From positions 43,974 to 107,973 of the forward strand of contig QCEG01000003.1 in NCBI GenBank assembly GCA_003278535.1: a stretch of DNA of 64,000 nucleotides. The letters run 5' to 3'. Below are positions 30,153-53,852 of this stretch, one piece after another; positions within the stretch are counted from its first letter, which is position 1; each line of letters begins with the position of its first letter. The notes beneath the pieces are model-generated. The model made no database searches. It was given only the letters and a program-made list of their open reading frames with translations, and was not told the DNA's origin. This DNA is from Prochlorococcus sp. AG-355-N18. Lineage in GTDB: Bacteria > Cyanobacteriota > Cyanobacteriia > PCC-6307 > Cyanobiaceae. A program made the position numbers and the translations under genes.

Positions 30153-31265
30153 TTATTCGTCGAATAATTGAATAGTTTCTGGTCTTTGTCTCTTTTTACC
30201 AAATTCAATATCTGTTAACTCTTTGGTTCTCTTTCTAATGTCTATCCTTTCGTAAGTCTGCATAATCGTAGCTACAGAGTTACCGCAAATACGAGCGAGT
30301 AGATAAGCGTCAGTACCTCTCAAGATATGGTTTTCGATAAAGGTTGATCTCATTGAATAGAGAGTATAAGGACGGTCTGAGAACTTATGACCTTTGAGCT
30401 TTCCAGCAGACATTAAGTAATTACATATCCATCTCCAATGCTGACCGATCTTTCTTTGGTTAGGTTGGTTTAACTCGTTGAATATCTGAGCGAAAACATA
30501 TTCGTCGCCTTTAATAGTGTGGTTAAATTCTTTCTTTAGAATTTCCTTCCAACGCTTGAAAACACTACCTAAGTCACAAGGTATCTCTCTGTACTCCTGA
30601 GTCTTCGCTCTCATTGTTGTTATGTATGCGATAAGTCTTTCTTCTCGACCCCATTCAGTACCTTCTGGAGCCCATTCAGAGGGGTCTTTCAAGTCAGGTG
30701 CTTCTATCTCTAGCTCTACTCCGTCGGCTTGAGCTTCTCCCATTACTTGCTCCCATTCTTCTTGAGCTTTAGTGTTTGATACTCTTCCTACATCAACAAT
30801 TTCTACATTCTTCCATTTGAGTTTGCAGATTTCTTCAGGAGACATACCTGAGTTTTTAGCAACTAAAATCCAATGCCAGAACATATTTCTAAACCATTTA
30901 CTCTTGGCTGTAGTTTTTCTATCAACTATCTTTATATCTTTTCTGAATTGATTAGTTGAAGGTAGCTTAGAGGGTTCATAAGCTTCTTTCCTCCATTTGT
31001 TTCTAACGTGATTGATTATGATTTCCCAGTCTTCAGGATTGATTGCTGGGTTTGCATCTCTGTCGCTCTGTCTGACTTCTATCTTTGGTAAGAATTGACC
31101 ATCCATCCACAAGCGAGCTTCGACATACTTGAACTTAACTAGATAGCTTTTAATAAATTCTCCGAGGACTGAAAGCTCTCTTTGAATAAGGATTCTTTTA
31201 TCTGTATCCTTTAGACGAAAAATACAATAATCATCGAAAGTTGATTCATTGATTTGAGAAGACAT
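30153..31265 (-). CDS. Tyrosine-recombinase-like integrase, catalytic portion (atypical active-site residues)
   Basis: 370 aa. Box I-like WILVAKNSGMSPEEICKLKWKNVEI, box II-like YTLYSMRSTFIENHILRG and LARICGNSVATIMQTYERI (nucleophile Tyr context). Confidence 0.7.
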   Translation of the reverse strand: MSSQINESTFDDYCIFRLKDTDKRILIQRELSVLGEFIKSYLVKFKYVEARLWMDGQFLPKIEVRQSDRDANPAINPEDWEIIINHVRNKWRKEAYEPSKLPSTNQFRKDIKIVDRKTTAKSKWFRNMFWHWILVAKNSGMSPEEICKLKWKNVEIVDVGRVSNTKAQEEWEQVMGEAQADGVELEIEAPDLKDPSEWAPEGTEWGREERLIAYITTMRAKTQEYREIPCDLGSVFKRWKEILKKEFNHTIKGDEYVFAQIFNELNQPNQRKIGQHWRWICNYLMSAGKLKGHKFSDRPYTLYSMRSTFIENHILRGTDAYLLARICGNSVATIMQTYERIDIRKRTKELTDIEFGKKRQRPETIQLFDE

Positions 31266-33353: not shown

Positions 33354-33772
33354 TAATGCGAAAGCTAATGCGATGAATAAATTCTTAATTATGAATTTGA
33401 ATTTCTATAAAATTATTTAGACTCATAGTATTTATTTTTTAAATATCTGTCAGTACTTGATTTAACTTTTTATGTTTTTGTATAAATCTTTTATAAGGAG
33501 CTAACGCCAGTTATTTTAAATCTACTATTAATGTAAATTTTTTCTTTATCTTTTTATAAATTAAATCTTAAATTATGTAGAGAAACTTATGTAGAAGTTG
33601 TTTTTATATAAGTTATATAAATCAAAATAAGTAGTCTTTTTTACCAATTTAATAGACCTGTTCTTAAATAAATATATTTGTCTTTGAAAAGCTCCTAAAA
33701 AATTCTTTTTCTTGAAATAAACATTGACAAGACATTGATTAAAAAAACTTTTATAAAACATTAACTTCTTTT

Positions 33773-34087
33773 ATGTATATGTTTCTAACCAACAAGACCC
33801 GTTTAAAAATTAAAGATATCGTAAAGAGGATTTCACTAGATGAACCTGTCGCATTGGAAGAAAGAATTTATGTAGAAAAGTTTGCAAAACATAATTCGAC
33901 TATATGGACATGGCTTAAGAAAGCTAATAGCTTGAGGAGATATGGCAAGCAAAAATCAGATGGAATAAATGGACTTATCCAGAATCTTGGCCTTGATGGT
34001 TTAGAAACTGAAAATCATTTCGATCCCAAAAATGATGATCTTGCTGATTGGTTTAGTGGATCTCCTGATTGGGTTAGGAGGAGCTAA
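33773..34087 (+). CDS. Hypothetical protein (104 aa)
   Basis: Track ORF followed by an intrinsic terminator. Confidence 0.5.
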   Translation: MYMFLTNKTRLKIKDIVKRISLDEPVALEERIYVEKFAKHNSTIWTWLKKANSLRRYGKQKSDGINGLIQNLGLDGLETENHFDPKNDDLADWFSGSPDWVRRS

Positions 34088-34102
34088 TTGCCCTCCTTTT
34101 TT
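34077..34102 (+). terminator. Intrinsic terminator
   Basis: GGAGGAGC-TAATT-GCCCTCC (one bulge) followed by T6. Overlaps the stop of 33773..34087. Confidence 0.6.
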
Positions 34103-34115
34103 AATTAAATTTAAA

Positions 34116-34286
34116 TTAATAATGAAAAAAGGGAACCTCCTCCACTTTTCTTGGCGAATAATCACAAATACCAAACTGCATACATTCCATTTGATTATCA
34201 GTTAGTTTTCTCTCAATTGATAATTTATCAAAGAGACCTCCAAATGCATGTTGAATTTTATTTTTTATTAGATTTATGTAATTCAT
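34116..34286 (-). CDS. Small ORF (56 aa) with SD
   Basis: MNYINLIKNKIQHAFGGLFDKLSIERKLTDNQMECMQFGICDYSPRKVEEVPFFHY*. GAGG lies 8 nt upstream. Shares a promoter motif with 43773..43874. Confidence 0.4.
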   Translation of the reverse strand: MNYINLIKNKIQHAFGGLFDKLSIERKLTDNQMECMQFGICDYSPRKVEEVPFFHY

Positions 34287-34475
34287 AATTAACCTCTTTT
34301 TTTGGAAGTTATTTAGTATTCTTTCTATACAAAATCAAGAGTTGTAATACCTAAAATACAAACTATAAATTAATCGGTTTTAAAATATTTCACTATATCC
34401 ATAATCAGTATTTTTGCTCTAGGAAATTTGAATCATAACCTTTAAATTAGATCCACTGATTGGAGGTTTTACTTC

Positions 34476-34589
34476 ATGAGTACTTACAAAACGAAATACT
34501 TTAAAAACACAAAAAAGAGTAATAATACTCTTTGGTTGGATAAATTAATTAATCAACTTGAAAAAAAATCAAAAGGAGTTAGATCATGA
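34476..34589 (+). CDS. 37-aa protein, NNTxWLxxLINxxE family
   Basis: MSTYKTKYFKNTKKSNNTLWLDKLINQLEKKSKGVRS*. GGAGG about 10 nt upstream. Paralog at 35370..35486. Confidence 0.5.
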   Translation: MSTYKTKYFKNTKKSNNTLWLDKLINQLEKKSKGVRS

Positions 34590-34750
34590 ATACATTTAGA
34601 AATAAACAATTCAAAAATGAATTAGATCCCAAGTATGCCTTTTATGATTGTCTTCGTAGTTGCGAACTCAAGAGTAATTCTGAAAAGTCTTTAGAAGAAT
34701 GCGTCGATAATTGTGAACTTAGGCCATTAACGAAGAATCTCGATGGCTAA
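34586..34750 (+). CDS. 54-aa twin-CX3C protein
   Basis: ATGA-coupled to the previous ORF. ...YDCLRSCELKSNSEKSLEECVDNCEL.... The same CX3C...CX3C layout occurs in 58431..58640. Confidence 0.5.
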   Translation: MNTFRNKQFKNELDPKYAFYDCLRSCELKSNSEKSLEECVDNCELRPLTKNLDG

Positions 34751-34827
34751 AAATAGGAAATTAAACTCTATTCAATAACTATTTTGACGTTAAAGAGTTT
34801 TGATATAAATTTTTGGAGGGAAATCTT

Positions 34828-34986
34828 ATGACCAACCTCGCAATTGAGCTACTCCTGTTAATTCTAGTTTTAGTTAATTTTGGAGCGATCCTTACAGCTA
34901 ATATTTATTCAAAATCATTAAAAGATATTCAGCGAAAGAGACAATTTTGTAGAGAATCTATAAGTAACCCATATTGTATTTTTTGA
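34828..34986 (+). CDS. 52-aa single-TM protein
   Basis: GGAGGG lies 8 nt upstream. MTNLAIELLLLILVLVNFGAILTANIYSKSLKDIQRKRQFCRESISNPYCIF*. Confidence 0.45.
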   Translation: MTNLAIELLLLILVLVNFGAILTANIYSKSLKDIQRKRQFCRESISNPYCIF

Positions 34987-35369
34987 TTAATTAATTCCAA
35001 ACTAATAGATCTCAAACTAGAGATCTATTATTAAAAGTTAAAGTCCAACAAAACTAAAAATAAGGAGTATATGGGACTTCCGTTTTCATTGAATCGCCAT
35101 AGTAGCTTTCAGCTGACTTTACTAAGATCCAATAAATGAAATTTAGAAATGATTTTTCCATAGGAACATCTATACCCTTCCTAATTCAAATCAGAATTTC
35201 AAATAAAAACATCGTAGAAAATACTTAAAAATTTCCTTAGTTAATTTGTGATGGATAGGTTTGTATGAAATGCTACTAAAGCTTGTCTTATCAAACGATT
35301 TGGTAATAATGCTTATTGATTCCTTTAATTTCTTAAGATCTATTAAATAGATATAAAAGTAAGAAATTT

Positions 35370-35486
35370 ATGAGTACTCAAAAAAGTCAAAGCCATAAAA
35401 TACAAGAGCCAAATAATACAGAATGGTTAGAAGAATTAATCAATAAAATTGAAAATATGAAAAATAAAATACCTAATACTTTTTAA
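35370..35486 (+). CDS. 38-aa protein, NNTxWLxxLINxxE family
   Basis: MSTQKSQSHKIQEPNNTEWLEELINKIENMKNKIPNTF*. Paralog of 34476..34589. Confidence 0.5.
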   Translation: MSTQKSQSHKIQEPNNTEWLEELINKIENMKNKIPNTF

Positions 35487-35696
35487 CTAATTACGTCTTA
35501 TATCATTTATTGATTAATTAAATATTTTAAATACTTTTGTATTTAAGTCAGCTGGCTTTTTAAATGGAGTGATTTATTTTATTTTTGCGAATAGTTATTT
35601 AACAATGTTTAAATGAGAATCTTTTAAAGCAAGTTTATGGTTCATTTTTATTTTTATTGACAATATTGAAATAAGTGTAAAAAGAATTTTAAATTT

Positions 35697-36887
35697 GTGA
35701 CTACTGAATCATCTAAAAATCAAAACTTTATAAGGAAGCATCCCAGTGAAGGAATGGATGCTTTAGAAAAAGAATCAAAATTACCTTTGAAAGGATGGAA
35801 AACTGAGGTTGCCAGAGCGAAAGAATATGGTTTAGAAGGAGCAAAAAGTATTGTCGATAGAAATATATCTACATTTTCAAGAGGAGAATTACCCCATTTT
35901 GCAGGTATCAATACTTTCATGAAAGCTCCATATGTTGAAAATGTAAATGAAGTGGGAAATTATGATGTTGCGATCGTTGGTGTTCCACATGATTCTGGAA
36001 CTACTTATAGACCAGGGACAAGATTCGGACCTCAAGGAATAAGAAAAATTTCTGCTCTCTATACTCCTTATAATTACGAAATGGGAGTGGATCTGAGAGA
36101 GCAGATATCTATTTGTGATGTAGGAGATATTTTTACAATTCCAGCTAATAATGAAAAAAGTTTTGATCAAATTTCAAAGGGGGTTGCTCATATTTTTGCT
36201 AGTGGTGCATTCCCAATTATTTTAGGTGGAGATCATTCAATAGGTTTTCCCACAGTTAGAGGAGTTTGTCGCCACTTAGGAGATAAAAAAGTAGGGATCA
36301 TTCACTTTGATAGACATGTAGATACTCAAGAAACAGATTTAGATGAAAGAATGCATACCTGTCCATGGTTTCATGCAACTAATATGAAAAATGCACCTGC
36401 AAAAAATCTTGTTCAATTAGGAATTGGAGGTTGGCAAGTACCAAGAGAAGGAGTGAAAATTTGCAGGGAACGAAGTACAAATGTTTTAACAGTTACTGAT
36501 ATCTGTGAAATGGGATTAAAAGAGGCCGCTGATTTTGCGATTGAAAAAGCTACGGATGGAACTGACTGTGTATATATTTCTTTCGATATAGATTGTATTG
36601 ATGCTGGATTTGTCCCTGGAACTGGTTGGCCTGAACCTGGGGGTTTATTACCTCGAGAGGCATTAAAACTTTTGGAATATATTATCAGAAAAGTTAATGT
36701 ATGTGGAATTGAGCTTGTTGAGGTTTCGCCTCCATATGATGTAAGCGATATGACAGCTCTATTAGCTACTAGAGTTATTTGTGATTCAATTGCACATCTT
36801 GTAGTAAGTGGTCAGCTCCCAAGAAAATCTAAACCAGAATGGATTTCAGATAAATGCAATATGTCAGTTGATCAAAAATGGAGATAG
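35697..36887 (+). CDS. gdmH: Ureohydrolase-family enzyme, proposed Ni-dependent guanidine hydrolase (GdmH-like) rather than agmatinase
   Basis: 396 aa (GTG start). Motifs GGDHSIGFP, IHFDRHVDT, SFDIDCIDAGFVPGTGWPEPGG. Immediately followed by hypA/hypB-like genes and an ABC importer. Confidence 0.6.
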   Translation: MTTESSKNQNFIRKHPSEGMDALEKESKLPLKGWKTEVARAKEYGLEGAKSIVDRNISTFSRGELPHFAGINTFMKAPYVENVNEVGNYDVAIVGVPHDSGTTYRPGTRFGPQGIRKISALYTPYNYEMGVDLREQISICDVGDIFTIPANNEKSFDQISKGVAHIFASGAFPIILGGDHSIGFPTVRGVCRHLGDKKVGIIHFDRHVDTQETDLDERMHTCPWFHATNMKNAPAKNLVQLGIGGWQVPREGVKICRERSTNVLTVTDICEMGLKEAADFAIEKATDGTDCVYISFDIDCIDAGFVPGTGWPEPGGLLPREALKLLEYIIRKVNVCGIELVEVSPPYDVSDMTALLATRVICDSIAHLVVSGQLPRKSKPEWISDKCNMSVDQKWR

Positions 36888-36893
36888 ACTTTA

Positions 36894-37250
36894 GTGCATG
36901 AAGTAGATATGACAAAATGCCTTATTCTTTCTATCGAAGAGTGGGCAGAGAAAAAAAATAAAAAAAAAATAGTTGTTGAAAAGATTAATCTTAAGATTGG
37001 CGAATTTACTTGCGTAGAACCAATATCATTAATTAATACTTTTAATGCTGCAGTCTTGGGTTCTTGGTTAGATTCCTCTGAGATTAAAATTGAGACAATA
37101 CCTTTTGAAGGCAAATGCTCTAAATGCAATAGATTATATTTTCCAAAGAAAGAGAATGGATATAAATCTCCGTGTTGCAATTTTAATTTAGAGGAAATTA
37201 TTAGTGGGAGGGAATTAAAAATCGCATCTATTGATTTTAAAGAAAAGTAG
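36894..37250 (+). CDS. hypA: HypA-like nickel metallochaperone (GhaA-like)
   Basis: 118 aa. The GTG start yields the conserved N-terminal MHE Ni-binding motif. Zn site is CSKC...PCC (variant of CxxC...CxxC). Confidence 0.7.
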   Translation: MHEVDMTKCLILSIEEWAEKKNKKKIVVEKINLKIGEFTCVEPISLINTFNAAVLGSWLDSSEIKIETIPFEGKCSKCNRLYFPKKENGYKSPCCNFNLEEIISGRELKIASIDFKEK

Positions 37251-37290
37251 AAATTTAGTATCTAGAATAAAAAAGTATTTTCAAGTAAAA

Positions 37291-37974
37291 ATGCATTTAC
37301 CAATTTCAGACAAAATTGAATTAAATATTCTTCATCAAAATAGTCATCAAGCTGAGAAAAATAAAGTTAAGTTTAATAATTTTAATTTACTTTGCTTGAA
37401 CATAATGAGTAGTCCTGGTGCAGGAAAAACGAGATTACTTGAAATAACTTTAGAAGATCTTTCAAAAAAATTTCAAAGTGCTGTTTTAGAGGGTGATATG
37501 ACCACTAATCTTGATGCGGCAAGATTAGAAAAATTAAATATTCCAGTAGTACCAATTACTACTGGAAGAGCATGCCATCTCGATGCAAATATGGTTAGTG
37601 GAGGTTTGAAATTACTAGAAAAGAAAATAAATCCTGATTTACTAGATATTTTGTTAGTGGAAAATGTAGGAAATTTAGTTTGTCCTGCAGAATTTGAGAT
37701 TGGAGAACATTTTAAAATTGCACTTTTAAGTATTACCGAAGGTGAGGATAAACCTTTAAAATATCCAATAATGTTTAGAGAAGCAGATTTAATTTTGATA
37801 ACTAAGGTTGATTTGTTACCCCATTTGAATTTTGATATTAACGAATTAAAATCGAACATAGCTTCAACTAACCCTAAGGCAGATGTGATAGAAATTTCTT
37901 CGATAACCAAGTCTGGATTCGATTTATGGCAAGATTGGATTAGTAAAAAGATTCTGAAATTTAAAAATAATTAA
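37291..37974 (+). CDS. hypB: HypB-like nickel GTPase (GhaB-like)
   Basis: Start taken at ATG 37291 (the track TTG at 37231 overlaps hypA). P-loop SSPGAGKT, ENVGNLVCPA, TKVDL. Confidence 0.75.
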   Translation: MHLPISDKIELNILHQNSHQAEKNKVKFNNFNLLCLNIMSSPGAGKTRLLEITLEDLSKKFQSAVLEGDMTTNLDAARLEKLNIPVVPITTGRACHLDANMVSGGLKLLEKKINPDLLDILLVENVGNLVCPAEFEIGEHFKIALLSITEGEDKPLKYPIMFREADLILITKVDLLPHLNFDINELKSNIASTNPKADVIEISSITKSGFDLWQDWISKKILKFKNN

Positions 37975-38075
37975 TATTGATTAAGTAGGAATAATCTCTT
38001 AAAAGTATCAGTCATTACAACTTTAGATTTACTTTTTCTTGAGTATTGATAGTACGTAATATTTTTTTTTCAAAA

Positions 38076-39074
38076 ATGTTAAAAAAATTGAGAGTTTTTA
38101 TTGCCTCTTTGCTGGCTCTAATATTAGCGATTTCATTAAGTACACTATCAAGTCCTGCAGCTCCAAAAGGTGAACCAATCACTTTGGGATATAGTAACTG
38201 GGCAGGATGGTGGCCTTGGGCAATAGCTGTTGATCAAAAAATGTTTGAAAAAAATGGAGTAAATGTTCAGATGAAATGGTTTGATGGATATGTTCAATCC
38301 ATGGAAACTTTTGCTGCTGGTAAAATTGATGGAAATTCGCAGACTCTTAATGATACTATTTCGTTCTTGCCAGGAGAGAATGGAGGGGAAGTAGTTGTTT
38401 TAGTTAATGATAATTCTGCAGGGAATGACCAAATAATTGCAGATAAATCAATTAAAAGTGTTGCTGATTTAAAAGGTAAAACAGTAGCAGTAGAAGAAGG
38501 TGTTGTGGATGATTTTTTACTTGTTTTAGCTCTGAATGATGTTGGATTAACTCGAGATGATGTCATTATTAAAGGTCTTCCAACTGATCAGGCTGCAACT
38601 GCATTCGCAGCAGGAAAAGTTGATGCAGTTGGTGCATTCCCTCCATTTACAGGAACAGCAATGAAGAGGCCTGGAGCAAGAGTTATTGCAAGTTCAAAAG
38701 ATTATCCTGGTGCAATCCCTGATTTATTAGCAGTCAGCGGAGATTTGATTTCTGAAAGACCAGATGATGTTCAAAAAATTGTGAAAACATGGTGGGATGT
38801 AAGAGAATTCATGGAAAAAAATCCAAGAAAATCCGAAAAGATCATGGCAAAGCGAGCTGGGATTCCAACACGCGAATATAAACAATATAAAGGTGGAACT
38901 AGGTTCTTTTCTTTGGAAGAAAATTTAGAAGCTTTTAGTGATGGGTTCGGTATGAAACATATGCCTTATGCAGCGAAACAAATGGCAGACTTTATGGTCA
39001 AGGTAGGATTTATTCCTGAAAAACCAGATATGAGTAAATTATTTGACTCTTCGTTCGTTAAAAACATCAGTTAA
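38076..39074 (+). CDS. ABC transporter periplasmic substrate-binding protein (NMT1/TauA/NrtA-like)
   Basis: Start at ATG 38076 gives signal peptide MLKKLRVFIASLLALILAIS.... Has the nitrate/sulfonate/bicarbonate-family look (GYSNWAGWWPW). Confidence 0.75.
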   Translation: MLKKLRVFIASLLALILAISLSTLSSPAAPKGEPITLGYSNWAGWWPWAIAVDQKMFEKNGVNVQMKWFDGYVQSMETFAAGKIDGNSQTLNDTISFLPGENGGEVVVLVNDNSAGNDQIIADKSIKSVADLKGKTVAVEEGVVDDFLLVLALNDVGLTRDDVIIKGLPTDQAATAFAAGKVDAVGAFPPFTGTAMKRPGARVIASSKDYPGAIPDLLAVSGDLISERPDDVQKIVKTWWDVREFMEKNPRKSEKIMAKRAGIPTREYKQYKGGTRFFSLEENLEAFSDGFGMKHMPYAAKQMADFMVKVGFIPEKPDMSKLFDSSFVKNIS

Positions 39075-39090
39075 TTAATACAAAATTAAA

Positions 39091-39909
39091 ATGGTTAGTT
39101 CTAAATTCATCGAGAGGGATAAATATTTTTTATCCCTCTTTTCATTTGGTAGTGAACCGAAAAAATTAAATAAAATATTTCTTCAAATAGCCTCACTTCT
39201 GCTTCCCCTTTTAATTTGGACATTAGTTTGTCAATTAAAACTTGTAAGTGAAATGTTTTTACCATCACCGTTAGCGGTCTTTTATTCTCTTATGGATATG
39301 GCTGAAAGTGGAATATTATTTGAAGATATTTTTGCAAGTACTGGTAGGGTATTTGCTGGTTTTATAATTGCAACAATTTTTTCAATTCCTTTAGGAATTT
39401 TAATGGGTTCATTCCCTTCTTTTTGTGCGTTATGTGAACCATTAATTGCAATGCTTAGATATATGCCTGCCGCTGCTTTTTCTCCTTTGCTTATTATTTA
39501 TTTAGGAATTGAAGAAGCTCCAAAAATCGCTTTAATTTTCATTGGTACCGTTTACTTTAATGTTTTGATGGTTATGGATTCAGTAAAATTTGTACCTAAA
39601 GAACTCATCGAAACAACGCTTACTTTAGGAGGTAATACAAATGATTTGTTGATCAGAGTAATAGCCAGATATTCATTGCCAAGTATTATTGATACTTTAA
39701 GAATTAATATTGCAACTTCATGGAATTTAGTAATTGTCGCAGAGTTAATTGCAGCAGAAGTTGGTTTAGGTAAAAGGATTCAACTGGCTCAAAGATTTTT
39801 TCGTACAGATCAAATATTTGCAGAATTAATAGTTCTTGGATTAATAGGATTTGCTTTGGATATGAGTTTTAGATTACTACTTAGACGTACATGTAAATGG
39901 GCTGTTTAA
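39091..39909 (+). CDS. ABC transporter permease (TauC/SsuC-type)
   Basis: 272 aa, multi-TM. EAA-like loop region ...ETTLTLGGNTNDLLIRV.... Confidence 0.8.
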   Translation: MVSSKFIERDKYFLSLFSFGSEPKKLNKIFLQIASLLLPLLIWTLVCQLKLVSEMFLPSPLAVFYSLMDMAESGILFEDIFASTGRVFAGFIIATIFSIPLGILMGSFPSFCALCEPLIAMLRYMPAAAFSPLLIIYLGIEEAPKIALIFIGTVYFNVLMVMDSVKFVPKELIETTLTLGGNTNDLLIRVIARYSLPSIIDTLRINIATSWNLVIVAELIAAEVGLGKRIQLAQRFFRTDQIFAELIVLGLIGFALDMSFRLLLRRTCKWAV

Positions 39910-40671
39910 ATGAAATTAGATGTTAATAATATTTCAAAATATTTTGGGGAAGGTTCAAATAGAAAAAAGGCAATTGAGGGAATAAGCTTTTCAATAAGTT
40001 CTGGCGAATTTAAAACTCTTGTTGGGAGCTCTGGATCAGGTAAAAGTACTATATTGAGGATTATTGCTGGGCTTGAGAGTCCATCTAAAGGGAACGTAAA
40101 AGTAGATGGGAAAATAGTTAGTGGACCGGGATTGGATAGAGGGATGGTTTTTCAGAAATATAGTCTTTTCCCTTGGCTCACTGCATCTGAGAATATTGCA
40201 TTTGGAATGAATTTAAATTCTTACAAGTTGAAAGAAATAACATATAGGACATCTTATTTATTAGAAGTAGTAGGTCTTCAGGATTCTGGAAATAAGTATC
40301 CAAAAGAATTATCTGGAGGAATGCAACAAAGGATTGCAATTGCAAGAGCTCTAGCGACTAACCCTAAAATTTTGCTTTTAGATGAACCTTTTGGAGCATT
40401 GGACTTACAGATAAGAGAATCTATGCAGAAATTTCTTTACGAATTATGGAAAAAAACTTCATTGACAGTTTTACTTATAACCCATGATATTGAAGAGGCA
40501 TTAGCTCTCTCTCAGCAAATATGTATTTTGGCACCTAATCCTGGAAGAATCATAAAAGAAGTTAGGGTAGATCTACAAAAAGGAGATTTAGATAAATTGA
40601 AACTTGATTCAGATTTTGCAAAATTAAGATATGAGTTATCTGATTTTTTAAGAGGCCTTCAAAAAAAATAA
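39910..40671 (+). CDS. ABC transporter ATP-binding protein
   Basis: 253 aa. Walker A GSSGSGKST, signature LSGGMQQR, Walker B LLLDEP. Its start abuts the permease stop. Confidence 0.9.
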   Translation: MKLDVNNISKYFGEGSNRKKAIEGISFSISSGEFKTLVGSSGSGKSTILRIIAGLESPSKGNVKVDGKIVSGPGLDRGMVFQKYSLFPWLTASENIAFGMNLNSYKLKEITYRTSYLLEVVGLQDSGNKYPKELSGGMQQRIAIARALATNPKILLLDEPFGALDLQIRESMQKFLYELWKKTSLTVLLITHDIEEALALSQQICILAPNPGRIIKEVRVDLQKGDLDKLKLDSDFAKLRYELSDFLRGLQKK

Positions 40672-40674
40672 ATA

Positions 40675-41697
40675 ATGTCAAATAGCTTTTTGCCTACTTG
40701 GCTTTATAACGACCAAAAAATTTTTGAACTTGAATTAGATAAATATTCAAAAAATTATTGGCACCCATTGATTTTCATAGGAGAAATCAAACCTGGCGAA
40801 ATATTAGAAAAAAAATTCTTTAATCAATCATTATTAATCTCGCATACAGAAAATAATTTAATAACTGTTTTTAAAAATAGATGCCCTCATCGTGGGTCAA
40901 AATTGTGTTTACCAAAAACAAAATTAAATCCATCTAAAAATATTTTTTGTCCTTACCATGGTTGGACTTTTGATACTTTTGGCAAACTTAAAACCTTGCC
41001 ATTAAAGTACGATTTTGAGATAAAAATAGAAGCAGAGGATTATTTTTTAGAAAAAGTAAACTCTTTAATAAATGGACCTTTAATTTGGATTAATTTCAGT
41101 AAAAAACCAATATCTATAGATGATCAAATTGAGCTTGTTGGAAGAAAATGTAATGATGAATGGAATATAAATTACAGCATTTTTTCTGAATTTTCTGATA
41201 CTTTAAATTGCAATTGGAAAATTGCCCATGATAATACACTGGATGATTATCATGTTGCAATAGCTCATAAAGATACCCTACATAAAGAGCAAGGTCCAAT
41301 TAAAAACTACAGGTATTTCTTCAGTGAATTGTGTAATGTACTTGTTACCCCTCTTAGTAGTGAAGCAAATCTATATACCTTTGGATTACTCCCATGGACC
41401 CATCTAATAATCTGGCCTGGTAAAGGGATTGTTTTAATAAATTATCTTCCTAAAAATATTGATCAGTGTATTATTGAAATTAAATTAGCCTCTTCTTCTT
41501 TATGTGAAAGTGATTTGGAAAATTGGAAAAAAAGTATATTAGAATTTCTTGGAGAAGATAAAGTTATTGTTGAATCAGTTCATAAGTCTTATCTGGAAAA
41601 TTTTAAACTTGGTCCGCCTAATAGACTTGAACAAAGGATTATACACTGGCACAATATTTATAAAGATTTTCTAAATGCATCGGGCATTTCTTTCTAA
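40675..41697 (+). CDS. Rieske [2Fe-2S] non-heme-iron oxygenase, alpha-subunit-like
   Basis: 340 aa. Rieske CPHRGSKL...CPYHGW and mononuclear-iron motif DDYHVAIAH (D-x2-H-x4-H). Starts 3 nt after the ATPase stop. Confidence 0.8.
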   Translation: MSNSFLPTWLYNDQKIFELELDKYSKNYWHPLIFIGEIKPGEILEKKFFNQSLLISHTENNLITVFKNRCPHRGSKLCLPKTKLNPSKNIFCPYHGWTFDTFGKLKTLPLKYDFEIKIEAEDYFLEKVNSLINGPLIWINFSKKPISIDDQIELVGRKCNDEWNINYSIFSEFSDTLNCNWKIAHDNTLDDYHVAIAHKDTLHKEQGPIKNYRYFFSELCNVLVTPLSSEANLYTFGLLPWTHLIIWPGKGIVLINYLPKNIDQCIIEIKLASSSLCESDLENWKKSILEFLGEDKVIVESVHKSYLENFKLGPPNRLEQRIIHWHNIYKDFLNASGISF

Positions 41698-46978: not shown

Positions 46979-46999
46979 TAGATTGTAGTGAATACTACA

Positions 47000-47082
47000 A
47001 AATCGTCCGATCTACCATCTGATAGACCGCAGTACGACTCAAGCCATAGGACGGGGACTTGGGCAAATTCAGGAGCTGCATC
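47000..47082 (+). promoter_or_regulatory. Candidate glutamine riboswitch (glnA RNA / Downstream-peptide class)
   Basis: GC-rich leader aaTCGTCCgatc...ataGGACGGGGAC. CGTCC (47004-08) pairs with GGACG (47049-53). AGGAG SD at 47071-75. The downstream micro-ORF carries an L.YRG..Y motif. Confidence 0.45.
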
Positions 47083-47184
47083 ATGGTAAACATGTATTTC
47101 AATGGAAAGTCATTCGTATATTGTAGAAAACAAGAAGAAAAGATTATAAAGCTTACTTATAGAGGATCTATTTACTTGAAATGA
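47083..47184 (+). CDS. 33-aa peptide with YRG motif (DUF4278-like)
   Basis: MVNMYFNGKSFVYCRKQEEKIIKLTYRGSIYLK*. KLTYRGSIY matches the motif I recall for peptides downstream of glutamine riboswitches. Confidence 0.45.
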   Translation: MVNMYFNGKSFVYCRKQEEKIIKLTYRGSIYLK

Positions 47185-52861: not shown

Positions 52862-53852
52862 AAGAAATTTATTTAATTTGTACTGTCTTTTCCCGCATTA
52901 TAAAATATGAATGTTGTATAGACCAAAATAAAATTTCTACAAAAAGAAAATTTTAATTTACCAATGTTCAAAAAAAAAGTTTTTTACTTGCAGTAAAACA
53001 AAAAATTTGGTTTCTTAAAAAAAAAGGGGTTTGGAATGAAAAATAAAACTTTCATATACGAATGCAATTGCATACACTGCCAACAAAAACTAAATCAAAT
53101 TAATAATGCAAAACTATATTGGGACAAATTAATTTCAAGAAAAAAGTTCGTATAGTTTTTCTACTAAATTCTCTAAGGTTTTGAAACTTTGTTACATTAA
53201 AGTAGTTTTAAAAAATTTATTCTTTTTAAGAAAAAAGATGTTGTACGATCTCAAGATCTTAATTAAGTATTAAACTTTTTTAGAATAACGATATTATTTA
53301 ACCTTTTGATTTTTTTTGTAGATTATATTTTCTCGATTTAATAGAAAAAGAATAATCAAAATACATGATGGTATTAAAATAAAATCTAAAGACATACATT
53401 TTTTTCAGTCTATTATCTATTTAGCAAATAAATAAATCCTTGACATTTTTTACTTATGCTCAAGATTTAATTCGATGGGTCTAATAAATATCTATATCTT
53501 TAGTATATTTACTTGCTTTTAAATTGAAAGAGCCTGCAAGTATCCCACCGGCAAGCTCATGACGATCTAGTTAATTCAGATATTTTCTGCCTTAACCAGC
53601 TGAGCACTTCCTAAATGCTAAATATATCTTAGTAAGTAAAATTACTTACTGTGAGTATAAATGCTTATTTTTACGAATGATTGCGAATTTGATAATAAAA
53701 AGTGATTTTTTTAAATGTGGCTTGTTGAATTTTTTTTACATAAATGTCACAAATTGACTCATAATATGGATGCTAGGATGTAGTTCATTGGAGATTTTGG
53801 TTTACATAAGTTAATATTTGTGTTACTTTAGTTAACAATTATCATATCTTTA

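What the first reader, a model, noticed from the sequence alone, without database searches (positions are those of the whole stretch)
35697..40671. An 'agmatinase' with HypA/HypB and an ABC importer: probable Ni-dependent guanidine hydrolase system in an organism without hydrogenase
A ureohydrolase-fold gene is followed, in tight co-orientation, by:
- a HypA-like gene (N-terminal MHE);
- a HypB-like GTPase;
- a TauA/NrtA-type binding protein, permease and ATPase.

Prochlorococcus-type genomes have no hydrogenase to mature, so Ni chaperones here need another client. The same arrangement was shown in Synechocystis (Sll1077 GdmH with GhaA/GhaB, Funck et al. 2022, from memory) to be a Ni2+-dependent guanidine hydrolase with a guanidine importer.

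This would give an island-encoded route to use guanidine as a nitrogen source. Automated annotation would most likely label it speB/hypA/hypB plus a nitrate/sulfonate transporter.
Basis: partly seen in the sequence, partly recalled or inferred. Interest (0 to 1): 0.8.

Follow-up and report, generated by a model that had tools for sequence, protein, structure and literature searches.

The report
Prochlorococcus guanidine uptake and hydrolysis cluster

Summary

**What is there.** Window 35697-40671 holds six co-oriented genes: gdmH, ghaA, ghaB and gimA, gimB, gimC.
- GdmH is 82.5% identical over its full length to Synechocystis Sll1077 (PDB 7ESR/7OI1). It keeps the specificity residues Thr97 and Trp305 (T103 and W311 here) and all metal-binding motifs.
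- GimA keeps all five published guanidinium-binding residues.

**Prior description.** The window is from a high-light-type Prochlorococcus. Doré et al. 2023 list this cluster as Pro-eCAG_004 ("guanidinase"). Itzenhauser et al. 2025 showed that GimABC is a high-affinity guanidine importer.

**What I add.**
- The guanidine-I riboswitch lies upstream of gdmH in 55 of 57 other cyanobacterial loci. It is absent from every Prochlorococcus locus examined.
- All Prochlorococcus copies instead carry a perfect NtcA palindrome (38005-38018) in front of gimA.
- A seventh gene (40675-41697) starts 3 nt after gimC and encodes an intact Rieske non-heme-iron oxygenase. It follows gimC in 60 of 60 informative loci. 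Its fold is closest to CntA and Stc2, but it lacks their hallmark residues, and its substrate is unknown.

Guanidine use by Prochlorococcus has not been shown experimentally.

The parts
35634..35696 (+). Conserved leader/promoter-like block upstream of gdmH (TTTATGG ... TTGACA at 35657-35662 ... A-rich stretch ... GTG start). It contains no guanidine-I riboswitch.
   Evidence: The block is invariant or nearly so across Prochlorococcus loci. This includes L017, L019 and L098, whose sequence further upstream is unrelated. Rfam at E<=10 and my own covariance model with filters off find no riboswitch here. Its function as a promoter is inferred, not shown.
35697..36887 (+). gdmH: Ni-dependent guanidine hydrolase (ureohydrolase fold), 396 aa, GTG start.
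   Evidence: 7ESR/7OI1: E 6e-226 and 82.5% identity over residues 15-396. T103 and W311 correspond to Sll1077 T97 and W305. H220 and E342 are conserved. The metal motifs are GGDHS at 177, FDRHVD at 204 and DIDCID at 297.
36894..37250 (+). ghaA: HypA-like Ni metallochaperone, 118 aa, GTG start.
   Evidence: Pfam HypA 80 bits. It falls below NCBIfam's hydrogenase HypA equivalog cutoff (74 bits against 88). It has an MHE N-terminus, C75-x2-C78 and C94-C95. It follows gdmH directly in more than 70 loci.
37291..37974 (+). ghaB: HypB-like GTPase. The mechanical ORF starts at TTG 37231; the probable start is ATG 37291.
   Evidence: TIGR00073 275 bits. It has the SSPGAGKT P-loop, C115-H116, ENVGNLVCP (C151) and TKVD, numbered on the 247-aa ORF.
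38005..38018 (.). Perfect NtcA-type palindrome GTATCAGTCATTAC in the ghaB-gimA spacer, 58 nt before ATG 38076.
   Evidence: It is present in every Prochlorococcus-type locus that spans the spacer. The GTA/TAC arms are kept where the core has mutated: L017 GTATCAGTTATTAC, L019/L096/L097 GTATCCATCATTAC, L098 GTAGCAGTTATTAC. It is absent at this position in Synechococcus/Cyanobium loci. NtcA binding is not tested.
38076..39074 (+). gimA: periplasmic guanidine-binding protein (NitT/TauT family), 332 aa. The mechanical ORF starts at TTG 38046.
   Evidence: TIGR01728 270 bits. W42, W45, D118, F188 and D216 are invariant in homologs. They map at a constant +17 onto Sll1080 W59, W62, D135, F205 and D233.
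39091..39909 (+). gimB: ABC permease.
   Evidence: Pfam BPD_transp_1. The closest NCBIfam models are TauC/SsuC/SaoP, all below cutoff. It is syntenic in all loci.
39910..40671 (+). gimC: ABC ATPase.
   Evidence: Pfam ABC_tran, E 2e-33. It is syntenic in all loci.
40675..41697 (+). Rieske non-heme-iron oxygenase alpha subunit (Cyanorak CK_00002251), 340 aa, substrate unknown.
   Evidence: Pfam Rieske plus Ring_hydroxyl_A. Invariant residues are C70, H72, C92, H95, H193, H198 and D295. The AF2 model has pLDDT 87.7, and its top PDB matches are CntA and Stc2. gimC lies immediately upstream in 60 of 60 informative loci retrieved through this gene alone.

Best explanation
This is a nitrogen-scavenging module for free guanidine.

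1. GimA binds guanidinium in the periplasm, and GimB and GimC pump it in using ATP.
2. GdmH, a di-nickel ureohydrolase loaded with Ni by the HypA-like GhaA and the HypB-like GTPase GhaB, hydrolyses guanidine to urea and ammonium.
3. The cell's urease then releases the remaining two nitrogens.

In Prochlorococcus the ligand-sensing guanidine-I riboswitch found in other cyanobacteria is missing. The transporter genes instead sit behind a consensus NtcA site, so uptake is probably switched on by nitrogen limitation rather than by guanidine itself.

The appended Rieske oxygenase belongs to the same module. It most plausibly oxidises a cationic, guanidine-related substrate.

What is shown and what is inferred:
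- Shown here: orthology, residue conservation, synteny, absence of the riboswitch and conservation of the NtcA motif.
- Shown elsewhere, in Synechocystis: enzyme activity, Ni dependence, GimA affinity and the NtcA promoter.
- Inferred: that all of this operates in Prochlorococcus, and what the Rieske enzyme does.
For: **GdmH.**
- E 6e-226 and 82.5% identity to Sll1077 (7ESR/7OI1). The next non-guanidinase hit is 1e-50.
- Specificity residues T97/W305 and the metal motifs are conserved.
- Sll1077 degrades guanidine, not agmatine, to urea and ammonium (PMC8390497).
- It is Ni-dependent and needs GhaA and GhaB (PMC12704784).

**GimA and the cluster.**
- All five proposed ligand residues are invariant.
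- Synechocystis GimA binds guanidine with a Kd of about 97 nM, and gimA/gimB mutants fail to grow at 0.1 mM guanidine.
- The gdmH-ghaA-ghaB-gimABC order is conserved in 22 Prochlorococcus genomes and dozens of Synechococcus/Cyanobium genomes.

**Regulation.**
- The NtcA palindrome before gimA is conserved through core mutations in all Prochlorococcus-type loci.
- Synechocystis has an NtcA-dependent promoter at the same place.
- In ocean metatranscriptomes, Prochlorococcus tauA (= gimA) clusters with amt1, urtA and urtB in the N-stress response (PMC11970481).

**Downstream step.** Urease genes are quasi-core in Prochlorococcus.

**Prior reading.** Doré et al. gave the same interpretation.
Against: - No enzymology, binding data or growth data exist for any Prochlorococcus protein or strain. 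All function is transferred from Synechocystis at 82% (GdmH) and about 60% (GimA) identity.
- GhaA has an unusual C94-C95 pair where canonical HypA has CxxC, so its Zn site may differ.
- Prochlorococcus GimA lacks the lipobox cysteine that all other homologs have.
- No NtcA site or riboswitch lies within 400 nt upstream of gdmH, so control of the enzyme genes is unexplained.
- Urease is not in the window, and I could not check the source genome.
- Marine guanidine concentrations are unknown to me.
Confidence: 0.88

Rival explanations
1. The physiological substrate is a substituted guanidine such as methylguanidine or another N-alkyl guanidino compound, not only free guanidine. The Rieske oxygenase hydroxylates the carbon next to the guanidino nitrogen. 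The product decays to guanidine plus an aldehyde, and GdmH then hydrolyses the guanidine. This extends the main explanation rather than excluding it.
For: - The Rieske gene sits 3 nt after gimC and follows it in 60 of 60 informative loci.
- Its catalytic apparatus is intact and invariant.
- Its closest folds are CntA and Stc2, which oxidise a carbon attached to a cationic nitrogen.
- The position of CntA C206, which faces the substrate's ammonium group at about 4.4 Å (PMC10952381), is an invariant Asp (D191) here.
- There is a precedent for an oxygenase feeding a guanidine pathway: MgdH with a lyase demethylates methylguanidine in a guanidine-riboswitch operon (PMC12508155).
Against: - The case rests on context and fold alone.
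- The group V hallmarks are absent: the Y203 cation-pi residue, the C206/C209 pair and the bridging Glu.
- No reductase or ferredoxin partner and no lyase are encoded nearby.
- GimA's pocket is described as fitting guanidinium, and import of larger substrates is untested.
- Rieske identity between Prochlorococcus and Synechococcus is only 33-40%.
Confidence: 0.28
2. The cluster mainly detoxifies guanidine, whether made endogenously or present in the environment, rather than acquiring nitrogen.
For: - Guanidine is toxic to cyanobacteria that lack GdmH at 0.1 mM or more (PMC12704784).
- Sll1077 was first noticed because it relieved guanidine toxicity (PMC8390497).
Against: - Detoxification would not need a high-affinity ATP-driven importer.
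- The importer carries an NtcA site.
- It is co-expressed with amt1 and urtA under N stress in situ.
- The cluster is enriched in low-N ocean regions.
Confidence: 0.08
3. The literal automated annotation is right: an agmatinase (SpeB) for polyamine synthesis, next to leftover hydrogenase maturation genes and a sulfonate, taurine or nitrate transporter.
For: - The enzyme passes the TIGR01230 agmatinase equivalog cutoff (182 bits against 174.3).
- GimA passes the SsuA-family model.
Against: - Identity to true agmatinases is low (PDB agmatinases score E 1e-33 to 1e-39, against 6e-226 for GdmH).
- Sll1077 does not use agmatine.
- The Thr/Trp residues that narrow the pocket are present.
- There is no hydrogenase in this lineage to mature.
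- The GimA ligand residues match guanidinium binding.
Confidence: 0.02

Closest known systems
Synechocystis sp. PCC 6803 gdmH-ghaA-ghaB / gimABC (sll1077-sll1082). Sources: Wang et al. 2021 (PMC8390497); Funck et al. 2022 Nature 603:515, cited in PMC12186494 but not readable here; Itzenhauser et al. 2025 (PMC12704784).
   Same: - Same six genes in the same order.
- GdmH is 82.5% identical, with the same specificity and metal residues.
- The GimA ligand residues are conserved.
- An NtcA-type site sits in front of gimA.
   Different: - There is no guanidine-I riboswitch in front of gdmH.
- There is no NtcA site near gdmH.
- An extra Rieske oxygenase gene follows gimC.
- GhaA has CC instead of a second CxxC.
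- GimA lacks the lipobox Cys.
Pro-eCAG_004 / Syn-eCAG_001 of marine picocyanobacteria (Doré et al. 2023, ISME J, PMC10119275; Cyanorak CK_00002247-2251).
   Same: This is the same cluster. It lists speB2 'guanidinase', hypA, hypB, tauA, tauB, tauC and the Rieske protein. It is reported in HLI SAG AG-679-M23 (my locus L019) and in HLII CUG1434 and CUG1437.
   Different: Nothing differs structurally. That paper notes the ykkC riboswitch only for Synechococcus, and it treats the Rieske protein simply as an Fe-S cofactor protein.
Nitrospira inopinata guanidinase (PDB 9FEK; Palatinszky et al. 2024, PMC11410670).
   Same: It is in the same enzyme clade (E 1e-170), and the Thr/His/Trp/Glu residues are conserved.
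   Different: The Nitrospira enzyme pairs with an APC permease behind a riboswitch. It has no Ni chaperones nearby and lacks the C-terminal extension that the window protein shares with Sll1077.
Group V Rieske monooxygenases CntA (6Y8J/6Y9D/6ZGP) and Stc2 (3VCA/4QUP).
   Same: - They are the best structural matches to the window's Rieske protein (Foldseek E about 1e-18, TM 0.72-0.82).
- They share the alpha-only architecture, the Rieske CxH...CxxH motif and the His-His-Asp iron site.
   Different: - Identity is only 17-22%.
- CntA Y203 corresponds to T188, the bridging E205 to D190, C206 to D191 and C209 to V194.
- No reductase gene lies next to it.
MgdH/lyase methylguanidine demethylation in Vreelandella boliviensis (Sinn et al. 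2025, PMC12508155).
   Same: An oxygenase embedded in a guanidine-assimilation operon converts a substituted guanidine into guanidine. This is a functional analogy for the Rieske gene.
   Different: - The enzyme class is unrelated (2-OG/Fe(II) dioxygenase plus a lyase).
- It belongs to the guanidine carboxylase pathway, not the GdmH pathway.
- The analogy is a hypothesis only.

Membership tests
GdmH (Ni-dependent guanidine hydrolase, ureohydrolase superfamily) | Full-length close homology to characterised Sll1077, clearly above other ureohydrolases | tested here: met
   E 6e-226, 753 bits and 82.5% identity over residues 15-396. The best non-guanidinase hit scores 173 bits.
GdmH (Ni-dependent guanidine hydrolase, ureohydrolase superfamily) | Specificity residues Thr97 and Trp305 (Synechocystis numbering), plus the His222 and Glu344 equivalents of N. 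inopinata | tested here: met
   T103, W311, H220 and E342 sit in identical local motifs: SGTTYR, GTGWPEP, HTCPWFH and EVSPPYD.
GdmH (Ni-dependent guanidine hydrolase, ureohydrolase superfamily) | Binuclear metal site ligands (GGDHS, DxHxD, DxD motifs) | tested here: met
   GGDHS at 177, FDRHVD at 204 and DIDCID at 297, all identical to Sll1077.
GdmH (Ni-dependent guanidine hydrolase, ureohydrolase superfamily) | [quoted passage not shown] | not testable with these tools
   This needs enzymology. It is known only for Sll1077 and the Nitrospira enzyme.
GhaA/GhaB (HypA/HypB-type Ni delivery proteins dedicated to GdmH) | HypA-like and HypB-like genes directly downstream of gdmH | tested here: met
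   The arrangement is conserved in more than 70 loci.
GhaA/GhaB (HypA/HypB-type Ni delivery proteins dedicated to GdmH) | HypA N-terminal MHE Ni site and four-Cys Zn site | tested here: inconclusive
   MHE is present. C75-x2-C78 is present. The second pair is C94-C95 ('SPCC') in all picocyanobacterial copies, where distant cyanobacteria have CPTC.
GhaA/GhaB (HypA/HypB-type Ni delivery proteins dedicated to GdmH) | HypB GTPase motifs and the Cys-His-Cys metal site | tested here: met
   SSPGAGKT, C115-H116, ENVGNLVCP and TKVD are present. TIGR00073 scores 275 bits.
GimABC guanidine ABC importer | NitT/TauT-type binding protein, permease and ATPase adjacent to gdmH-ghaAB | tested here: met
GimABC guanidine ABC importer | GimA guanidinium-binding residues W59, W62, D135, F205 and D233 (Sll1080 numbering) | tested here: met
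   W42, W45, D118, F188 and D216 of the 332-aa protein lie at a constant +17 offset. They are invariant in an 8-sequence alignment that includes a Synechocystis sp. homolog. The Sll1080 sequence itself was not available, so the numbering match is inferred from the constant offset.
GimABC guanidine ABC importer | NtcA-dependent promoter in front of gimA | tested here: inconclusive
   A perfect GTA-N8-TAC lies at 38005-38018 and is conserved in all Prochlorococcus-type loci. The position of the -10 box is ambiguous, and binding and activity are not testable here.
Guanidine-I (ykkC, RF00442) riboswitch-controlled gdmH operon | RF00442 aptamer in the gdmH 5' leader | tested here: not met
   - Rfam gathering and E<=10 scans found none.
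- Covariance model R1 with filters off scored at best 5.5 bits, and not upstream of gdmH.
- None was found at 23 Prochlorococcus genome loci (22 with upstream sequence), against 55 of 57 other loci.
- None was found in 12 Prochlorococcus-type metagenome loci (about 10 with upstream sequence), against 21 Synechococcus-type loci.
Rieske non-heme-iron oxygenase alpha subunit | CxH...CxxH [2Fe-2S] motif plus a 2-His-1-carboxylate iron site | tested here: met
   C70, H72, C92, H95, H193, H198 and D295 are invariant in 22 sequences. Pfam Rieske plus Ring_hydroxyl_A.
Group V (quaternary-ammonium) Rieske monooxygenases (CntA/Stc2/GbcA) | Aromatic cation-pi residue (CntA Y203), Cys206/Cys209 pair and bridging Glu205 | tested here: not met
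   The aligned positions are T188, D191/V194 and D190. The fold is nevertheless closest to this group. The NCBIfam GbcA model scores 82 bits against a cutoff of 670.

The most novel reading that the evidence does not exclude
The Rieske oxygenase fused onto the picocyanobacterial guanidine cluster may be a new kind of guanidino-compound oxygenase. It could, for example, be a methylguanidine or alkyl-guanidine N-dealkylase that uses an invariant Asp in place of the group V cation-pi Tyr and Cys pair. Such an enzyme would widen the module from free guanidine to substituted guanidines. Prochlorococcus would in addition have replaced ligand sensing by the guanidine-I riboswitch with pure nitrogen-status control through NtcA.
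Probability: 0.28. Interest if true: 0.6.

Novelty: already known. Interest (0 to 1): 0.25.

Why it matters
Prochlorococcus is the most abundant phototroph in nitrogen-poor oceans, so each additional nitrogen source it can use bears on marine nitrogen budgets and on niche partitioning between its ecotypes.

That point was already made by Doré et al. 2023, and the parts were characterised in Synechocystis. What remains open and testable:
- whether any Prochlorococcus strain actually grows on or takes up guanidine;
- why this lineage dropped the guanidine riboswitch that nearly all other carriers keep;
- what the strictly linked Rieske oxygenase does.

The case also documents a persistent annotation error. 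NCBIfam's agmatinase equivalog model accepts this guanidinase.

Tried and rejected
- **Riboswitch searches.** Rfam at gathering threshold over the whole window, and at E<=10 over 33700-38200, found only chance snoRNA-like hits in the region. My covariance model with filters off on the window and on L019 found nothing. I therefore rejected the idea of a hidden or degenerate riboswitch.
- **NtcA near gdmH.** There is no perfect NtcA site within 400 nt upstream of gdmH. The nearest, at 35263, is 434 nt away and lies beyond a small ORF.
- **Promoter and terminator scan.** It is uninformative in this AT-rich DNA: 28 promoter-like sites against 35.8 expected.
- **uORF.** A possible 7-codon uORF in the conserved leader (ATGGTTCATTTTTATTTTTATTGA) is not conserved in L019 or L097, so I dropped it.
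- **Funck et al. 2022.** The paper is not held in the library. I took its key residues from papers that cite it.
- **Island test.** The downstream LOG-family flank protein is not on record by exact sequence, so I could not compare genomes with and without the cluster. There are no tRNA genes in the window, and only a weak integrase-like match at 30153-31265 (E 4e-4, below Pfam's cutoff).
- **Phylogeny.** I built no formal ureohydrolase tree. The 580-bit gap between guanidinases and every other solved ureohydrolase made one unnecessary.

Full report
**1. Observation**

The interval 35697-40671 holds six + strand ORFs exactly as described.
- The first is a 396-aa arginase-fold protein (Pfam PF00491, E 2e-79).
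- The second is a 118-aa HypA homolog whose N-terminus reads MHE.
- The third is a HypB GTPase (TIGR00073, 275 bits against a cutoff of 121).
- The last three are a NitT/TauT-type binding protein, a permease and an ATPase.

Likely true starts are ATG 37291 for the HypB-like gene and ATG 38076 for the binding protein.

A 340-aa Rieske oxygenase gene (40675-41697) begins 3 nt after the ATPase stop codon.

**2. Organism and spread**

A scan of species-representative genomes with the enzyme returned 22 Prochlorococcus single-cell or draft genomes at 96-99% identity. Marine Synechococcus followed at 84-87%, then Cyanobium and other cyanobacteria at 80-86%.

The window also carries Yfr20 and a glutamine-II riboswitch, both typical of marine picocyanobacteria.

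The first 20 kb of the window are core genes: atpA, atpG, nadE, atpB, groEL and iPGM. The cluster lies in a following stretch of hypothetical and very small ORFs with 27-33% G+C.

**3. The enzyme is a GdmH ortholog**

Comparison with solved structures:

| PDB entry | Protein | E-value |
|---|---|---|
| 7ESR/7OI1 | Synechocystis Sll1077 | 6e-226 |
| 9FEK | Nitrospira inopinata guanidinase | 1e-170 |
| 1GQ6 | proclavaminate amidinohydrolase (next best) | 8e-50 |

The Sll1077 alignment is ungapped over residues 15-396, and identity is 82.5%.

The literature gives Thr97 and Trp305 as the residues that confer guanidine specificity in Sll1077. It gives Thr105, His222, Trp313 and Glu344 as the matching set in the Nitrospira enzyme (PMC11410670). 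The window protein has T103, H220, W311 and E342 in identical local motifs. It also has unchanged GGDHS, FDRHVD and DIDCID metal motifs.

Sll1077 breaks down guanidine rather than agmatine (PMC8390497). It is Ni-dependent and needs its two chaperones (PMC12704784 and PMC12186494).

NCBIfam's agmatinase equivalog accepts this protein (182 bits against 174.3).

**4. Chaperones**

GhaA has the MHE nickel-binding N-terminus and C75-x2-C78. Its second cysteine pair is the adjacent C94-C95. This 'SPCC' is shared by all Prochlorococcus, Synechococcus and Cyanobium copies, while two more distant cyanobacteria have CPTC. GhaA falls below NCBIfam's hydrogenase HypA cutoff (74 bits against 88).

GhaB has the HypB P-loop SSPGAGKT, the Cys-His pair, ENVGNLVCP and TKVD.

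Open-ocean Prochlorococcus and Synechococcus genomes lack bidirectional hydrogenase genes (PMC5186783). That fits a non-hydrogenase client for these chaperones.

**5. Transporter**

Itzenhauser et al. showed three things for Synechocystis:
- Sll1080 (GimA) binds guanidine with a Kd of about 97 nM.
- W59, W62, F205, D135 and D233 were proposed as the binding residues.
- gimA and gimB mutants cannot use 0.1 mM guanidine.

In the window protein the corresponding residues are W42, W45, D118, F188 and D216 in 332-aa numbering, at a constant +17 offset. They are invariant in an alignment with marine Synechococcus, sponge-symbiont, Phormidesmis, Lyngbya and Synechocystis sp. homologs.

**6. Synteny**

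The order gdmH-ghaA-ghaB-gimA-gimB-gimC-Rieske is identical in all Prochlorococcus loci long enough to show it, and in marine Synechococcus. Many freshwater Cyanobium/Synechococcus loci insert a glutamine-synthetase-like gene between ghaB and gimA.

**7. Regulation differs from all other carriers**

*Riboswitch.*
- Rfam finds no guanidine-I riboswitch in the window, even at E<=10.
- Three of four marine Synechococcus loci have one ending about 26 nt before gdmH.
- A covariance model built from those three hits finds the element directly upstream of gdmH in 55 of 57 non-Prochlorococcus genome loci. It finds none at 23 Prochlorococcus loci or in the window.
- It also finds the element in 21 Synechococcus-type metagenome loci. 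It finds none in 12 Prochlorococcus-type loci, including the divergent low-GC locus L098.
- With all filters off, the best score near gdmH is noise.

*What Prochlorococcus has instead.*
- Immediately upstream of the GTG start is a conserved block of about 63 nt with a consensus TTGACA.
- In the ghaB-gimA spacer is a perfect NtcA palindrome, GTATCAGTCATTAC (38005-38018).
- Its GTA and TAC arms survive where the core has changed (L017, L019, L096, L097, L098). It is absent at that position in Synechococcus and Cyanobium.

*How this fits published data.*
- Synechocystis has an experimentally verified NtcA-dependent promoter in front of gimA.
- In ocean metatranscriptomes, the Prochlorococcus nitrogen-stress cluster consisted of just amt1, tauA (= gimA), urtA and urtB (PMC11970481).
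- That matches an NtcA site placed before gimA but not before gdmH.

NtcA binding and promoter activity are inferred, not shown.

**8. The Rieske gene**

Its relatives in a 5.8-billion-protein database number only 192. Every named one is from Synechococcus, Cyanobium, Aphanothece or Prochlorococcaceae.

The Rieske ligands (C70, H72, C92, H95), the iron ligands (H193, H198, D295) and the stretch CNWKIAHDNTLDDYHVAIAH are invariant. This holds although overall identity between Prochlorococcus and Synechococcus is only 33-40%.

I fetched eighty metagenome loci using this gene alone. Sixty had enough upstream sequence to judge, and all sixty had gimC immediately upstream.

An AlphaFold model (pLDDT 87.7) matches best to two enzymes:
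- CntA, the carnitine monooxygenase (E about 1e-18, TM 0.72-0.77);
- Stc2, the stachydrine demethylase (TM 0.80-0.82).

Both are 'group V' enzymes that oxidise a carbon bound to a cationic nitrogen. The group V hallmarks are nevertheless missing:

| CntA residue | Role | Window family |
|---|---|---|
| Y203 | cation-pi contact with substrate | T188 |
| E205 | bridging residue for electron transfer | D190 |
| C206 | Cys pair; faces the substrate's ammonium group | D191 |
| C209 | Cys pair | V194 |

C206 faces the substrate's ammonium group at about 4.4 Å in CntA (PMC10952381). An invariant Asp at that position would suit a guanidinium substrate, but this is inference.

A precedent exists for an oxygenase that feeds substituted guanidines into a guanidine pathway: MgdH with its lyase (PMC12508155).

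Doré et al. noted the Rieske gene only as an Fe-S protein that might explain the cluster's absence from low-iron waters. I found no paper that assigns it a reaction.

**9. Prior knowledge**

Doré et al. 2023 (PMC10119275) describe Pro-eCAG_004 / Syn-eCAG_001. They interpret it as follows:
- speB2 is an ortholog of sll1077, re-annotated as guanidinase.
- hypA and hypB are proposed to insert Ni.
- A TauABC-like transporter is proposed to import guanidine in low-N areas.
- A downstream Rieske gene is noted.

Their Dataset 6 lists all seven genes as ProCAG 4. Among the genomes visible in the stored part of the table, carriers are HLI SAG AG-679-M23 (my L019) and HLII CUG1434 and CUG1437. No Prochlorococcus genomic-island assignment is given, and urease genes are nearly universal.

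Itzenhauser et al. 2025 state that gdmH is absent from many Prochlorococcus but frequent in marine Synechococcus.

**10. Verdict**

- Novelty: already known.
- No experiment yet shows guanidine use by Prochlorococcus.

Noticed in passing
window 46985-47184: A glutamine-II riboswitch (47001-47063, 56.8 bits) is preceded 3 nt upstream by a perfect NtcA palindrome (GTAGTGAATACTAC, 46985-46998). A small ORF follows at 47059-47184. The spacing suggests that NtcA overlaps the promoter or start site, which would be repressor-like, as is known for gif genes.
   Followed up: partly
window 53531-53649: The sRNA Yfr20 (53531-53620, minus strand, 74.9 bits) has two overlapping GTA-N8-TAC matches (53632-53645 and 53636-53649) just upstream of its 5' end.
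   Followed up: no
window 34476-34589 and 35370-35486: Two paralogous ORFs of 37-38 aa (MST..K...NNT.WL..LIN..E) lie in the 1.6-kb gap upstream of gdmH. The gap length varies between Prochlorococcus genomes (about 1.0 kb against 1.9 kb between orf104 and gdmH).
   Followed up: partly
window 36894-37250 (GhaA residues 94-95): All picocyanobacterial GhaA copies have adjacent cysteines ('SPCC') in place of the second CxxC of the canonical HypA zinc site. Two distant cyanobacteria (L078, L080) keep CPTC.
   Followed up: partly
window 38076-38170 (GimA N-terminus): Prochlorococcus GimA lacks the lipobox cysteine that every other aligned homolog has (LAISLSTL here, against LAVAC / VVSC / VASC elsewhere). 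It may therefore be a soluble periplasmic protein rather than a lipoprotein.
   Followed up: no
window 39112-39140: A 12-bp terminator-like hairpin followed by a T-rich tail lies 38 nt after the gimA stop, inside the first codons of gimB. It could be an attenuator or stabiliser that gives an excess of binding-protein mRNA.
   Followed up: no
window 30153-31265 (minus strand): A 370-aa ORF has a weak, sub-threshold match to phage integrase (E 4e-4). It is the only mobility-like gene near the cluster, and there are no tRNA genes anywhere in the window.
   Followed up: partly
L036 10469-11881 and about 30 other freshwater Cyanobium/Synechococcus loci: A 470-aa glutamine-synthetase-like gene is inserted between ghaB and gimA in many freshwater picocyanobacterial versions of the cluster. 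Their GimA is only 43-49% identical to the marine form.
   Followed up: partly
L033 7865-7986, L112 3905-4026, L125 3899-4020: Some marine Synechococcus-type loci (for example MIT S9452) have a weak-scoring guanidine-I element (36-49 bits, against 120-137 bits for the closest marine Synechococcus loci). In L033 it falls below Rfam's gathering score. These may be degenerating riboswitches, intermediate to the Prochlorococcus loss.
   Followed up: no
L159 3399-7688: In one metagenome locus gdmH, with its riboswitch, lies downstream of the Rieske gene instead of upstream of ghaA. This is a rearranged order of the cluster.
   Followed up: no
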